Sequence record: KF055347
Source: Escherichia phage JH2
Strand: one strand, 5' to 3'
Length of the DNA: 64,000 bases
The notes beneath the pieces are model-generated. The model did no database searches, was not told the DNA's origin, and was given only the letters and a program-made list of their open reading frames with translations. The position numbers and the translations under genes are program-made. Shown here in pieces: positions 40,579-43,041 of the stretch (positions within the stretch are counted from its first letter, which is position 1; each line of letters begins with the position of its first letter).

Positions 40579-40770
40579 ATGAATAAAGAAGACAAGCATA
40601 AAAATGCTGTACGGACTCCTGATGGAAAGGTTCAATCCTTCATCCTGACAGTTGGTGGAAATCCGTTTCGTTGCCACTGCGGAGCAAACTGTTTTCATAA
40701 ACCAGATAAAAATGACTTAGAGCTTTACGCATGTAATGCTTGCAATACTTGGTATCACTCAGAGGAATAA
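40579..40770 (+). CDS. hypothetical Cys-rich small protein
   Basis: 63 aa; CHCGANC...CNAC. Confidence 0.4.
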   Translation: MNKEDKHKNAVRTPDGKVQSFILTVGGNPFRCHCGANCFHKPDKNDLELYACNACNTWYHSEE

Positions 40771-40771
40771 A

Positions 40772-41875
40772 ATGACAATACTGTACAAACAAAATAAAGA
40801 CGGCTCTTTTAGCGTCTGGTCATGCGTTGCTGTAGGTGACAAAGTTGTTACCACGTATGGCAAAGAAAATGGCAAGATGATGTTTGAAGAGTATACAGCA
40901 GAACCTAAAAACATCGGTAAAAAGAATGAGCGTAACGCTGAACAACAAGCTCTCTTTGAAGTTGCTGCAAAGTATAAAAAGCAGGTTGACCGCAAAGGTT
41001 ATGCTTACACAAAAGAGTCTGCACAGAATACTGAGAAGGTAGGTGTACAGCTTGCTCATGATGCTGCAAAGGTTAGCCATGCAAAGTATCTGAAGTTCCC
41101 TGCTGATGCTCAACCGAAACTTGATGGTGTCCGTTGTAGGATTTCAAGGCACTTGAGTATTGGCAGTGTATTTACAGCATATTCTCGTGAGAATACTGTT
41201 TACAAAATCCCTACTGAACTAATACCTGACATTATGGCAATGTTAAGGCTCCACAAAGATGTTGATGAATTTGATGGAGAGATTTATGCTCATGGGTGGG
41301 ACTTAGAAGATATCGTCTCCATGATTAAAAATGAAGACAATCCTGACAGACACTTGCTCAAGTTTTACTGGTATGATATCTGCGACAGTACTAAGACGTG
41401 GCCTGAGCGTAGAGATATCATTGAGACTTCACCATTGAATGACTTTAGAGACGGCTGTAAAGTTGTTCCTGTTAAGTCTCGTCGTGTGAACTCTTGGGAA
41501 GAGTTTGATGAAGCTCATGATAAGTGGGTTGAAGCTAAGTTTGAAGGTGCAATGTACCGTTCAATCTCTGAAGAATCTTTCTACGAGTGTTGTCACCGTT
41601 CATACTTCTTGATTAAGCACAAGAAGATGCACACTGAAGAGTTTAAAGTGACTGGTGTCAAGACCGATAAACGTGGTCATGGCAAGTTCGTTGTAGAGAC
41701 TCTTCCTAACGTCTTTGTAGATGTATCATGGAAGACTACTCATGAGAAGAAACAGTATCTTGCTGAGCATCCTGAAGAGTTTATCGGGAAACCTTTAACG
41801 GTTCAGTTCCAGAAGATGACTCGTAAGGGGTCTTTACAGTTCCCTGTTGGTCTAGTTATACGAGATTATGAATAA
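40772..41875 (+). CDS. ATP-dependent DNA ligase
   Basis: adenylation motif KLDGVRC (KxDG); start at ATG 40772 after GAGGA RBS; longest ORF begins 40736. Confidence 0.75.
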   Translation: MTILYKQNKDGSFSVWSCVAVGDKVVTTYGKENGKMMFEEYTAEPKNIGKKNERNAEQQALFEVAAKYKKQVDRKGYAYTKESAQNTEKVGVQLAHDAAKVSHAKYLKFPADAQPKLDGVRCRISRHLSIGSVFTAYSRENTVYKIPTELIPDIMAMLRLHKDVDEFDGEIYAHGWDLEDIVSMIKNEDNPDRHLLKFYWYDICDSTKTWPERRDIIETSPLNDFRDGCKVVPVKSRRVNSWEEFDEAHDKWVEAKFEGAMYRSISEESFYECCHRSYFLIKHKKMHTEEFKVTGVKTDKRGHGKFVVETLPNVFVDVSWKTTHEKKQYLAEHPEEFIGKPLTVQFQKMTRKGSLQFPVGLVIRDYE

Positions 41876-41881
41876 AAGTTG

Positions 41882-41909
41882 TTGACATAGAAAATTTGGT
41901 GAGTATACT
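41882..41909 (+). promoter_or_regulatory. sigma70-like promoter candidate (TTGACA-N16-TATACT)
   Basis: TTGACA at 41882-41887 and TATACT at 41904-41909; inverted repeat GGTGAGTA / TACTCACC spans the -10. Confidence 0.45.
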
Positions 41910-42043
41910 GAGCAGCATAAACCAACGGGTACTCACCAGCATCACTTAAGAGTCTTCTAAAAGGGTTTTTAAGTGAGGTTCAGTGTTGTATGTTTTGGTA
42001 TGGTTTGGTAAGGTAGGGTTTGGTATGGAAGGATGGCAGTAGC

Positions 42044-42107
42044 CTTATAAAAATCTGCCAAATAAGCTATAAAATCTGTTGACAAGTCAGGTGTTATAGC
42101 TTATTTT
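42044..42107 (+). promoter_or_regulatory. promoter/operator candidate: TTGACA flanked by a perfect 12-bp inverted repeat
   Basis: AATAAGCTATAA (42061-42072) and TTATAGCTTATT (42094-42105) bracket TTGACA (42079-42084); direct repeats of TATAAAA(A)TCTG; TATTTT 17 nt after the -35. Confidence 0.45.
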
Positions 42108-42151
42108 TATACTCAATGTAATACAAAATTTAATATAACTTTGAGGTCATT

Positions 42152-42535
42152 ATGAAAAAGATTTTATTAGCTGCTGCAATGGTTATGGCAATGAATTTAC
42201 CAGTCAATGCAACAGAACTCCCCAATGTGGACTTATCAGGTGTTCCAGAAGACACTTGCCAGATTGTAAAAGGTGTTGCTCTATCTAATGGTGAGTTACT
42301 TAAACCAATCTCTGAAGAGTCTTTGACAGAGATGACTGATAAGGTAACTGACTATCAGTATCGCGTTCTTGCAGAGTATTTCCTGCAATCTGCAAATATT
42401 AAAGAGAAACACCATGATGATATTGATGTACAGGCTATGCTCAACCATCGTATTCAGTTTAAAGAAGATTTGATGCAAAAAGCTATGTACGGTGTTGAGT
42501 ATTTCTTAGAAAACAGAAGCTGCACAGGTATTTGA
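42152..42535 (+). CDS. hypothetical secreted protein
   Basis: 127 aa; Sec-type signal MKKILLAAAMVMAMNLPVNA. Confidence 0.5.
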   Translation: MKKILLAAAMVMAMNLPVNATELPNVDLSGVPEDTCQIVKGVALSNGELLKPISEESLTEMTDKVTDYQYRVLAEYFLQSANIKEKHHDDIDVQAMLNHRIQFKEDLMQKAMYGVEYFLENRSCTGI

Positions 42536-42536
42536 T

Positions 42537-42749
42537 ATGGCTCTTAAAAAGTTACATCCCAGAAGCGGTTATGGTAAGATAATTGATGATACAGATGGCT
42601 TTACAGTCTTTACAGTTATCTGTCAAGATGATTCACAGATTGAAAAGGCTCTTGACGATTATCTTAATGATGAACGTGAAAAGGTTAGGGCTACAAACAT
42701 AGATTCATTGATTGACACTTCACGTAAACGGAAGAAGAAAGATGAATGA
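42537..42749 (+). CDS. hypothetical protein
   Basis: 70-aa ORF, Lys-rich C-terminus. Confidence 0.4.
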   Translation: MALKKLHPRSGYGKIIDDTDGFTVFTVICQDDSQIEKALDDYLNDEREKVRATNIDSLIDTSRKRKKKDE

Positions 42750-43041
42750 GGTTTTTGACCCTTATGCTCCACAAGATGATTGGGAGGCTGACAGAGAGGC
42801 TGAAATGGAGAGTTATATTTGTCCAATGGATGTAGACGAAATGAGAGATTTCGTTGCACATCGTTTTAAGAGAGAGATTAAATCCAGAGGTCTTTCTCAA
42901 GAGCAAGTTGCTAAAATTTGTGGTATCTCTCAGGCTCGTGTATCCAACATAATCAATCTCACTGGTAATGTCTCTCTTGAGTTTATGTTGGAAGTATGTG
43001 AAAAATTTGGTGTTAATTTTAATTTAAGGTTGGCAGATTAA
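42742..43041 (+). CDS. helix-turn-helix (XRE/Cro-like) DNA-binding protein
   Basis: RGLSQEQVAKICGISQARVSNIIN is a classic HTH; acidic N-terminal region; start at internal ATG 42742. Confidence 0.55.
   Translation: MNEVFDPYAPQDDWEADREAEMESYICPMDVDEMRDFVAHRFKREIKSRGLSQEQVAKICGISQARVSNIINLTGNVSLEFMLEVCEKFGVNFNLRLAD

What the first reader, a model, noticed from the sequence alone, without database searches (positions are those of the whole stretch)
41876..42040. Consensus sigma70-type promoter followed by G/T-rich reiterated motifs after the ligase gene
TTGACA-N16-TATACT at 41882-41909 is close to consensus, with an 8-bp inverted repeat GGTGAGTA/TACTCACC spanning the -10. Downstream is a run of GGTATGG / GGTTTGGTA repeats (about 41990-42035) with no coding capacity. 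The 275-bp gap is unusually long and could encode a short non-coding RNA.
Basis: seen in the sequence. Interest (0 to 1): 0.4.

Follow-up and report, generated by a model that had tools for sequence, protein, structure and literature searches.

The report
Orphan VIPR guide RNA aimed at vipr
The promoter and G/T-rich repeats after the ligase gene are a lone guide-RNA gene of the newly described phage VIPR system; this Felix O1-like phage has lost the Vipr protein gene, and the guide it kept matches that very gene in rival phages.

Summary
The window comes from a Felix O1-like phage (Felixounavirus). The 276-bp gap between the DNA ligase gene and the ORF87 homologue holds a near-consensus sigma70 promoter. 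Downstream lie a hairpin, ten strictly phased GGYNN pentamers (41977-42028) and a covarying 3' pseudoknot. This matches the vrRNA (guide RNA) of type II VIPR systems described in two 2026 bioRxiv preprints on phage SUSP1. Relatives carry vipr, vap and 3-5 vrRNAs at the same syntenic site. The relatives' 200-aa protein matches PDB 36pp 'SUSP1 Vipr protein' at E=2e-127. The window has no vipr or vap, so this is a solo vrRNA.

I applied the published one-nucleotide-skip pairing rule. vrRNAs from vipr+ relatives hit E. coli satellite phages (34/45), which reproduces the preprint. Solo vrRNAs never hit them (0/13). Instead, 9/13 match the vipr coding sequence of vipr+ relatives at 80% or more. Guides from vipr+ loci (0/45) and from two-unit vipr-less loci (0/11) do not.

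The window's guide matches vipr nt +1 to +29 at 19/20 positions, and no shuffle of 2000 exceeded 17. The skipped bases fall on codon wobble positions.

The element is a known kind. The vipr-less, anti-vipr solo guide looks like an undescribed variant. Its function in trans is inferred, not shown.

The parts
41882..41909 (+). P1, sigma70-type promoter (TTGACA-N16-TATACT). It is the promoter of the VIPR locus in relatives. The predicted start is near 41916.
   Evidence: scores it 11/12. In 33 related loci, vipr+ and vipr-less and including SUSP2, the -35 hexamer is invariant and the -10 is TATACT in 30 and TATGCT in 3.
41898..41937 (.). 8-bp inverted repeat GGTGAGTA / TACTCACC. The left arm overlaps the -10 and the right arm lies in the leader. 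It may be an operator. Its role is unknown.
   Evidence: Both arms are invariant in 33 loci while the loop varies, so there is no covariation to test.
41940..41978 (+). 5' hairpin H1 (type A) with stem CACTTAA / TTAAGTG, extendable. Its loop GAGTCTTCTAAAAGGGTTT is conserved. A hairpin of this kind precedes every vrRNA, and one precedes vipr in relatives.
   Evidence: Covariation across stem types A and B gives 89.6% paired against 77.8% in shuffles, with G-U pairs on the + strand. The hairpin appears in the minimum-free-energy fold.
41977..42028 (+). Guide tract of ten GGYNN pentamers plus a terminal GG. The NN code is TC GT AT TT AT TT AA AG TT AT.
   Evidence: In 70 distinct related arrays, position 2 is G in 98%, position 3 is Y in 98%, and positions 4-5 are variable. 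The length is 5k+2 in 68/70 arrays.
42027..42061 (+). Invariable 3' tail forming an H-type pseudoknot. S1 is AAGG 42029-32 / CCTT 42043-46. S2 is TGGCAG 42034-39 / CTGCCA 42055-60. An A-rich loop lies at 42047-54.
   Evidence: 92.7% of cells paired against 70% in shuffles, 9/11 pairs changed on both sides, and slid controls at 28-47%. The cryo-EM preprint resolves a terminal pseudoknot in SUSP1 vrRNA.
42060..42107 (+). 13-bp perfect inverted repeat (AAATAAGCTATAA / TTATAGCTTATTT) enclosing promoter-like P2 (TTGACA 42079-84, N17, TATTTT 42102-07). It marks the downstream boundary of the VIPR locus. It may act as a weak terminator and as the promoter for ORF87.
   Evidence: It is conserved in all relatives. 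Its function was not tested.

Best explanation
The region is a solo vrRNA gene, the guide RNA of a type II (SUSP1-clade) VIPR system.

Shown by sequence comparison: the promoter P1 is followed by a 5' hairpin, ten GGY/NN repeats and the clade's 3' pseudoknot tail. It sits at the exact site where relatives carry vipr, vap and 3-5 vrRNAs. This phage has no vipr or vap in the 64-kb window.

Shown computationally: under the published one-nucleotide-skip pairing rule, the guide's NN dinucleotides match the first 29 nt of the vipr coding sequence of vipr+ relatives. It pairs with the coding strand, and the skipped bases fall on codon wobble positions.

Inferred mechanism: the RNA is transcribed from P1 and trimmed to about 85-100 nt. 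In a cell co-infected by a vipr+ Felix-like phage, it is bound by that rival's Vipr protein, one protomer per pentamer. The filament then sits on the start of the rival's vipr gene and represses the vipr-vap operon and the downstream vrRNAs. It also competes with the rival's own guides for Vipr. On this reading it is a guide-only anti-VIPR weapon.
For: Identity
- The window is 90-99% identical to 256 Felix O1-like phage records.
- The gap varies from 273 to 2132 bp in 26 related loci, and the window's unit recurs 1-5 times in them.
- The pentamer phase is strict.
- Both tail helices covary and so does H1.
- The relatives' 200-aa insert protein matches PDB 36pp_D 'SUSP1 Vipr protein' at E=2.4e-127.
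- SUSP2 has the same P1/leader, hairpin types, tail types and P2 flanking vipr-vap.
- The preprints define vrRNAs as 9-16 GGY/NN repeats plus a pseudoknot tail, about 100 nt, bound by a Vipr filament.

No vipr or vap
- None in the window and none in the rest of Felix O1.
- 118 phage records carry a Felix-type Vipr at 90% identity or more. 256 records match the 801-bp ligase-ORF87 region. 110 records hold the window's 276-bp gap as one contiguous match.

Targeting
- My implementation reproduces the 1-nt-skip rule. 34/45 vrRNAs from vipr+ loci hit E. coli satellites at 80% or more. Other skip lengths gave 0-2 hits in the smaller tests with one and five satellites.
- Solo vrRNAs hit satellites 0/13.
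- Solo vrRNAs hit the vipr-vap operon 9/13 at 80% or more. Guides from vipr+ loci score 0/45 and from two-unit vipr-less loci 0/11.
- These hits appear only with the 1-nt skip.
- The window guide scores 19/20 on 14 of 15 vipr alleles, and 0 of 2000 shuffles exceed 17.
- Four solo lineages hit four different vipr sites at p<=0.004.

Constraint
- Solo arrays keep G2 at 97% and Y3 at 100%.
- Of 12 within-lineage substitutions, none breaks G2 or Y3.

Precedent for guide-only use
- 4/25 satellites carry vrRNAs with clade-type tails.
- No vipr DNA was found in 5426 E. coli genomes.
Against: - There are no expression, binding or repression data for this phage. All targeting evidence is computational.
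- Repeats 2-4 of the window's array deviate from GGY (AGT, TGT, GTT). GTTTT breaks the G2 position, which contacts Vipr R138 and W178, so loading may be impaired at the 5' end.
- One solo array (OPT-SAL01) has no vipr match, and one lineage is only marginal (p about 0.02-0.05).
- The benefit to a vipr-less phage of silencing a rival's vipr is not obvious.
- Two-unit vipr-less loci show that vipr can be lost without any anti-vipr guide.
- Strict GGY content is slightly lower in solo arrays (71% against 78%, not significant).
- The sample is 13 distinct solo arrays in about 6 lineages.
Confidence: 0.55

Rival explanations
1. Non-functional relic. Recombination between repeated vrRNA units deleted vipr-vap, and the remaining unit is decaying. 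The match to vipr records a self-targeting guide that made vipr loss advantageous or neutral, and it has no present use.
For: The gap is a clear deletion hotspot with states of 273-2132 bp. Hairpin and tail repeats give 40-60 bp of homology for deletion. The window's array has three non-canonical repeats. One two-unit vipr-less array has a frame slip. No Vipr is available in cis.
Against: Promoter, hairpin, tail and the G2/Y3 positions remain intact across about 6 solo lineages. Of 12 substitutions, none breaks G2 or Y3, where about 4 would be expected under neutrality. Four lineages carry different guides to four different vipr sites in the wobble-skip register. This needs repeated selection for vipr targeting rather than a single accident. 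Satellites already use vrRNAs without owning vipr.
Confidence: 0.27
2. Decoy or sponge. The solo vrRNA is made in large amounts from the strong promoter and simply soaks up Vipr from rivals or other sources. The guide sequence does not matter.
For: P1 is near consensus. The GGY scaffold and tail, which are the Vipr-binding parts, are conserved.
Against: A decoy does not predict 19/20 complementarity to vipr under the 1-nt-skip rule. It also does not predict convergence of four lineages on vipr.
Confidence: 0.08
3. The guide's real target is elsewhere, for example Salmonella-specific satellites or prophages that were not sampled. On this reading the vipr matches are secondary.
For: Solo forms are commonest in Salmonella phages. 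Only E. coli, Citrobacter, Shigella and IMG/VR satellites were searched. Guides from two-unit vipr-less loci do hit satellites, 9/11.
Against: Vipr would still be needed in trans. The vipr matches are far beyond the shuffle nulls and specific to the solo class. No hit above the null was found in 416 kb of satellites.
Confidence: 0.07
4. Not a guide RNA at all. It is only a promoter with a long 5' leader for ORF87, or a DNA-level element such as an R-loop origin, a G-quadruplex or a protein-binding iteron array.
For: The non-template strand downstream of a strong promoter is G-rich. P2 and ORF87 follow directly.
Against: Position-specific conservation (G2 98%, Y3 98%, NN free) and exact 5-nt phasing fit Vipr recognition. 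They do not fit G-quadruplexes or simple G-richness. Hairpin and pseudoknot covariation with G-U pairs points to a + strand RNA. Homologous units are sequenced sRNAs in SUSP1.
Confidence: 0.03

Closest known systems
Type II VIPR vrRNAs of Escherichia phage SUSP1 (bioRxiv 10.64898/2026.04.26.720920 and 10.64898/2026.04.26.720927)
   Same: It occupies the same syntenic site, between the ligase and the ORF87 homologue. It shares the promoter/leader, the 5' hairpin types, the GGY/NN pentamer tract of 9-16 repeats and the 3' pseudoknot tail. The 1-nt-skip code yields a high-quality natural target whose skip bases fall on wobble positions.
   Different: There is no vipr and no vap in the genome window, and only a single vrRNA. 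Its target is the vipr gene itself rather than a satellite phage. The preprint's pipeline starts from Vipr proteins and searched the E. coli pangenome. It therefore would not have seen vipr-less loci or phage-borne targets.
vrRNAs carried by the satellites of Felix-like phages (mentioned in the same preprint; seen here in L156, L162, L164 and L188)
   Same: These are guide-only elements with SUSP1-clade tails and no vipr of their own. They must use a Vipr made by another genome.
   Different: They sit in integrated satellites. Their guides match other satellites at 0.83-0.85, with only one of them beating all 40 shuffles, and do not match vipr. Here the carrier is a full-size lytic phage.
P. 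fulva-clade vrRNAs that target other VIPR systems (same preprint)
   Same: Guides are directed at a VIPR locus and are interpreted as defensive.
   Different: Those guides belong to complete vipr+ systems in prophages. Here the carrier lacks the effector.
Virus-borne mini-CRISPR arrays (Medvedeva et al. 2019, PMC6858448)
   Same: A virus carries a minimal guide cassette without effector genes. It uses an effector encoded elsewhere to attack close relatives.
   Different: That case uses a CRISPR repeat-spacer architecture and host Cas proteins, with targets in rival virus genomes generally. Here the guide is a pentamer-coded vrRNA, the effector would be the rival's own, and the target is the effector gene.
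RNA anti-CRISPRs (Racr: phage-encoded solitary CRISPR repeats that sequester Cas proteins; recalled from memory, not checked here)
   Same: A phage non-coding RNA mimics a guide scaffold in order to subvert an RNA-guided effector.
   Different: Racrs act as decoys without targeting. This RNA carries a specific guide.

Membership tests
VIPR vrRNA (type II, SUSP1 clade) | Tandem GGY/NN (YNNGG) pentamer repeats, 9-16 copies, in a single phase | tested here: met
   There are ten pentamers at 41977-42028. Seven are strict GGY, two have A or T at G1, and one (GTTTT) breaks G2. Family statistics from 70 arrays: G2 98%, Y3 98%.
VIPR vrRNA (type II, SUSP1 clade) | Invariable 3' tail folding as a pseudoknot | tested here: met
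   The tail at 42027-42061 is the type that ends the last vrRNA in SUSP2 and in 14+ other loci; the window's copy has one A fewer in the A-rich loop. Two interleaved helices covary across four tail types.
VIPR vrRNA (type II, SUSP1 clade) | Location in the intergenic regions flanking vipr (synteny with the characterised locus) | tested here: met
   The ligase-[VIPR]-ORF87 synteny holds in SUSP2 and in 15 vipr+ loci.
VIPR system (complete) | A vipr gene (RAMP homologue) in the same locus | tested here: not met
   tblastn of Vipr against the window finds nothing better than E=1. Felix O1, which has the same short gap, also lacks vipr in its remaining 23 kb. Relatives have it, with a PDB 36pp match at E=2.4e-127.
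VIPR system (complete) | Accessory gene vap downstream of vipr | tested here: not met
   There is no homologue of the 146-aa protein in the window.
VIPR vrRNA (type II, SUSP1 clade) | NN dinucleotides match a natural DNA target under the 1-nt-skip rule (at least 80% NN match), with skip bases at wobble positions | tested here: met
   19/20 on vipr nt +1 to +29 in 14/15 alleles, with skip bases at codon position 3, and 0/2000 shuffles above 17. Only the 1-nt skip works.
VIPR vrRNA (type II, SUSP1 clade) | Expressed as an sRNA of about 100 nt and co-purifies with Vipr | not testable with these tools
   This was shown for SUSP1 and P. fulva in the preprint. There are no data for this phage.
CRISPR array | Identical direct repeats separated by unique spacers of similar length, with cas genes | tested here: not met
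   There is no repeat-spacer structure. The only repeat is the 5-nt period, and there is no second copy of the unit in the window.
Any Rfam family or tRNA | Match to a curated covariance model | tested here: not met
   There are no hits at gathering threshold in the window. In L021 only four hits far below their families' gathering scores (22 bits or less), none on a vrRNA unit. There are no tRNAs.

The most novel reading that the evidence does not exclude
Felix O1 and many relatives, this phage among them, are 'guide-only' players in VIPR warfare. They discarded the Vipr effector but keep one strongly promoted vrRNA. Its code points at the vipr gene of vipr+ relatives, so a rival's own effector would be turned against the rival's effector gene. 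Different solo lineages have diversified to different vipr sites, which suggests an ongoing arms race.
Probability: 0.5. Interest if true: 0.8.

Novelty: new variant of a known kind. Interest (0 to 1): 0.68.

Why it matters
VIPR is a newly reported RNA-guided DNA-recognition system proposed to predate CRISPR. This finding places a VIPR remnant in a phage closely related to the classic typing phage Felix O1, which carries the same kind of remnant.

It also shows a locus state that the protein-centred discovery pipeline could not see. In that state there is a promoter, one guide and no effector, and the guide is aimed at the effector gene.

If the guide works in trans, it would be the first anti-VIPR mechanism. 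It would also be a clean natural example of effector hijacking by a guide-only element. This bears on how RNA-guided systems are countered, on phage-phage and phage-satellite ecology in Enterobacteria, and on choosing Felix-like phages for cocktails. It is directly testable with the published SUSP1 Vipr plasmids and GFP reporters.

Tried and rejected
Ideas held before the identification and then dropped:
- A TRAP-like or CsrB-like protein sponge. The 5-nt-per-subunit idea turned out right in spirit, since Vipr binds one pentamer per protomer.
- A two-tetrad G-quadruplex. Rejected because Y3 is as conserved as G2.
- An R-loop replication origin of the Ig-switch-region type.
- A Chi-like or RecA-preferred GT-rich recombination hotspot. 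Chi does not fit the phase.
- A primase recognition array.
- A boxA/nut-like antiterminator in the hairpin loop.
- A tRNA CCA-end sponge.
- A type III toxin-antitoxin repeat array. The units are too long and the protein is not ToxN-like.
- A T4-type PeSL shuffling cassette.

Searches that found nothing useful:
- Rfam and tRNA scans were empty.
- Pfam gave nothing for Vipr or Vap. PHROGs gave only families of unknown function.
- The 2010 Felix O1 genome paper does not list this promoter or this repeat.
- BLAST of vrRNA units against E. coli genomes found nothing.
- BLAST of vipr-vap against E. coli genomes found nothing.
- The genome-contig scan for satellites returned only 2 loci.
- One annotated-region call fetched the wrong side of phage P219.

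Not done:
- Exact-pattern scans of public collections for the window guide. Natural targets are rarely perfect, and chance hits for this AT-rich 20-base pattern are expected at about 1.

Full report
**What is at the coordinates**

The window is a Felix O1-like phage (Felixounavirus). An 801-bp query around the finding matches 256 phage records at 90-99% identity. The finding lies in the 276-bp gap (41876-42151) between the ATP-dependent DNA ligase gene (40736-41875, Felix O1 ORF88) and the ORF87 homologue (42152-42535).

The promoter TTGACA-N16-TATACT (41882-41909) is the best sigma70-like match in 12 kb, at 11/12. The 8-bp inverted repeat GGTGAGTA/TACTCACC is present. The G/T-rich run is the only period-5 tandem array in the window. 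Rfam and tRNA scans find nothing. The 2010 Felix O1 genome paper (PMC3185647) lists five promoters but not this one, and it does not mention the repeat.

**Comparative anatomy**

In 26 related loci the ligase-ORF87 gap ranges from 273 to 2132 bp. The window's central segment recurs 1-5 times per locus. I collected 80 units, 70 of them distinct. Each unit has three parts.
- A 5' hairpin. It has a conserved loop (GTCTTYTAAGAGGGT) and alternative, mutually compensating stems.
- A pentamer tract.
- A 3' module with two interleaved helices.

The pentamer tract is strictly phased.
- Position 1 is G 78%, T 14%, A 7% and never C.
- Position 2 is G in 98%.
- Position 3 is T in 87% and C in 11%.
- Positions 4-5 are close to random.
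- 68 of 70 arrays have length 5k+2, with 9-19 pentamers, even though their sequences are hypervariable.

The tail helices pair in 92.7% of cells against 70% in shuffles. Nine of eleven pairs change on both sides, and slid controls give 28-47%. The 5' hairpin pairs in 89.6% against 77.8%, with G-U pairs on the + strand. Long-gap relatives read as follows: ligase, P1, 2-3 units, a hairpin, a 200-aa gene, a 146-aa gene, a GC-rich terminator, 1-3 units, P2, ORF87.

**Identification**

I scanned IMG/VR for (GGTNN)x7GG. This returned more than 120 diverse viral contigs, many with multi-array clusters. The 200-aa protein has homologues next to the arrays in at least 34 of them.

That protein matches PDB entry 36pp chain D, 'SUSP1 Vipr protein', at E=2.4e-127. 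It has 525 relatives in the large protein database, none named.

[quoted passage not shown] Their main points are these.
- Vipr is an ancestral RAMP protein. It polymerises along a vrRNA made of 9-16 GGY/NN repeats, with one protomer per repeat.
- The GGY bases are sequestered. The NN dinucleotides pair with double-stranded DNA while skipping every third target base.
- A conserved 3' tail forms a pseudoknot in the SUSP1 clade.
- The complex silences transcription. Natural SUSP1-clade targets are satellites in E. coli.
- vap1 is an accessory gene.

SUSP2, a phage of the same subfamily, has the VIPR locus at the same syntenic site. It shares the same P1/leader sequence, hairpin types, tail types and P2. 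The window's element is therefore a vrRNA gene.

**The window lacks the effector**

tblastn of Vipr and of the 146-aa protein against the window finds nothing. Felix O1, which has the same short gap, also lacks them in the 23 kb not covered by the window. In the phage collection, 118 records carry a Felix-type Vipr at 90% identity or more. 256 records match the 801-bp ligase-ORF87 region. 110 records hold the window's 276-bp gap as one contiguous match.

Three locus states exist.
- Full: vipr, vap and 3-5 vrRNAs.
- Vipr-less with two vrRNAs.
- Vipr-less with one solo vrRNA. The window, Felix O1, P219, EC6/JN01, finno, L27 and others are in this state.

The repeated hairpins and tails provide homology for the deletions.

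**Target prediction**

I implemented the 1-nt-skip rule in Python. I located the satellites through their homologue of the phage gene that follows the tape-measure gene. That homologue occurs in 474 of 5426 complete E. coli genomes. I gathered 25 satellite loci totalling 416 kb.

As a positive control, 34 of 45 distinct vrRNAs from vipr+ loci match satellites at 80% NN identity or more. Of these, 32 beat all 40 NN-order shuffles. In the earlier tests on one and five satellites, other skip lengths gave 0-2 hits. This independently reproduces the preprint. vrRNAs from two-unit vipr-less loci behave the same way (9/11).

Solo vrRNAs do not hit satellites: 0 of 13 distinct arrays, about six lineages. 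Searched against Felix-like phage DNA, solo guides instead hit the vipr gene of vipr+ relatives. Against the vipr-vap operons of 15 loci the results are as follows.

| Guide class | Arrays with at least 80% NN match | Mean best fraction |
|---|---|---|
| Solo | 9/13 (4 at 90% or more) | 0.82 |
| From vipr+ loci | 0/45 | 0.62 |
| From two-unit vipr-less loci | 0/11 | 0.63 |

The effect appears only with the 1-nt skip. Skips of 0, 2 and 3 give 0/13.

The window's guide is TC GT AT TT AT TT AA AG TT AT. It matches the reverse complement of ATGAAACTGTTAAATATCAAAATCACTGG, which is vipr nt +1 to +29. The score is 19/20 in 14 of 15 alleles, including SUSP2. None of 2000 shuffles exceeds 17. A synonymous wobble change in one allele leaves the score unchanged, because the skipped bases are codon third positions.

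The other solo lineages hit different sites.

| Lineage | Score | Site in vipr |
|---|---|---|
| Felix O1 | 20/22 | +469 |
| EC6/JN01 | 16/18 | +37 |
| ph2-2/L27/DE7 | 20/24 | +362 |

All three have p<=0.004. One further lineage is marginal, and OPT-SAL01 has no match. The window guide has no self-target in the window; the best score is 16/20, which is background. The guide's 5-nt period and the target's 3-nt period rule out ordinary sequence homology as the source of these matches.

**Is the solo guide still under constraint?**

P1 and both arms of the inverted repeat are invariant in 33 loci. Solo arrays keep G2 at 97% and Y3 at 100%. Strict GGY content is 71% against 78% in vipr+ loci (Fisher p=0.13).

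There are 12 within-lineage substitutions. Seven fall on NN positions, four on position 1, and one is a Y-to-Y change. None breaks G2 or Y3, where I estimate about four would be expected under neutrality. The sample is small.

**Precedent for acting in trans**

Four of 25 satellites carry vrRNAs with SUSP1-clade tails. No vipr or vap DNA is detectable in 5426 E. coli genomes. Satellite vrRNAs must therefore use the helper phage's Vipr. The preprint notes satellite-borne vrRNAs and, in the P. fulva clade, vrRNAs that target other VIPR systems. It does not mention Felix O1, orphan vrRNAs or vipr-less phages. Its pipeline starts from Vipr proteins, and its SUSP1-clade target search used only E. 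coli chromosomes and plasmids.

**Interpretation**

Firmly supported: the finding is a solo vrRNA gene in a collapsed VIPR locus, and its code points at the start of vipr.

Inferred: the RNA is made from P1 and is loaded by Vipr from a co-infecting vipr+ relative. It then represses that relative's vipr-vap operon.

The main rival reading is a relic of a self-targeting guide left after vipr loss. I give it about a quarter of the probability. Conservation of the scaffold and the convergence of four differently coded lineages on vipr argue for selection. Still, the benefit to the carrier is unclear, and the window's array has three non-canonical repeats, one of them at G2.

The class is already known from 2026 preprints. 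The vipr-less, anti-vipr solo state appears to be new.

Noticed in passing
L152-L156 (E. coli chromosomes), L157-L168, L187, L188 and others: An integrated satellite of about 11 kb carries a tape-measure gene, a baseplate-like gene 83-93% identical in DNA to the Felix-like phage gene, an HNH gene and a serine recombinase. It is present in 474 of 5426 complete E. coli genomes, at three or more different insertion sites (yciI-tonB, ymdF-wrbA and a split DUF72 gene near yecD). Four of 25 copies carry their own vrRNA but no vipr.
   Followed up: partly
L046:2200-3350, L038:4600-5080 (minus strand), L100, L037, L106: Unrelated IMG/VR viral contigs carry long clusters of GGYNN arrays directly downstream of distant Vipr homologues (22-43% identity). 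The architectures differ: up to 16 arrays, 25-nt conserved linkers, or arrays separated by only 3-4 nt. These probably correspond to other VIPR types in the preprint.
   Followed up: partly
window 42060-42107: A perfect 13-bp inverted repeat encloses a second TTGACA promoter-like site just upstream of ORF87. It is conserved in all relatives. It could act both as a weak terminator of the VIPR locus and as a regulated promoter.
   Followed up: no
window 41898-41937: The 8-bp inverted repeat across the P1 -10 is invariant in 33 loci while its loop varies. It may be an operator. An HTH_3 (XRE-type) regulator is encoded 0.8 kb downstream, at 42712-43041.
   Followed up: partly
L021:372-518; L003:1284-1886: Some relatives have extra small genes inserted between the ligase stop and P1. 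One is a 48-aa hydrophobic ORF (phrog_22006). In one Salmonella phage there is a 200-aa ORF with no PHROG or Pfam match. This is therefore a second insertion hotspot.
   Followed up: no
L006 intergenic positions 1589-1659 (unit 4): One vrRNA 5' hairpin carries a 22-nt insertion in its otherwise conserved loop. Its stem is intact.
   Followed up: no
L026 unit 1 (vipr-less two-unit locus): A 1-nt insertion breaks the pentamer phase of this array. It is one of only two arrays among 70 whose length is not 5k+2, which is consistent with decay in some vipr-less loci.
   Followed up: no
L028:9119-10534 (Felix O1 ORF42, outside the window): A 471-aa protein annotated 'RNA-binding protein' (DUF2828 + DUF7788) sits immediately upstream of the 22-tRNA cluster. 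Its function is unknown.
   Followed up: no
phage records MN850564.1, MN850647.1, NC_028825.1: Almost all GenBank records leave this region unannotated. A few label it only 'repeat_region' or 'promoter'.
   Followed up: no
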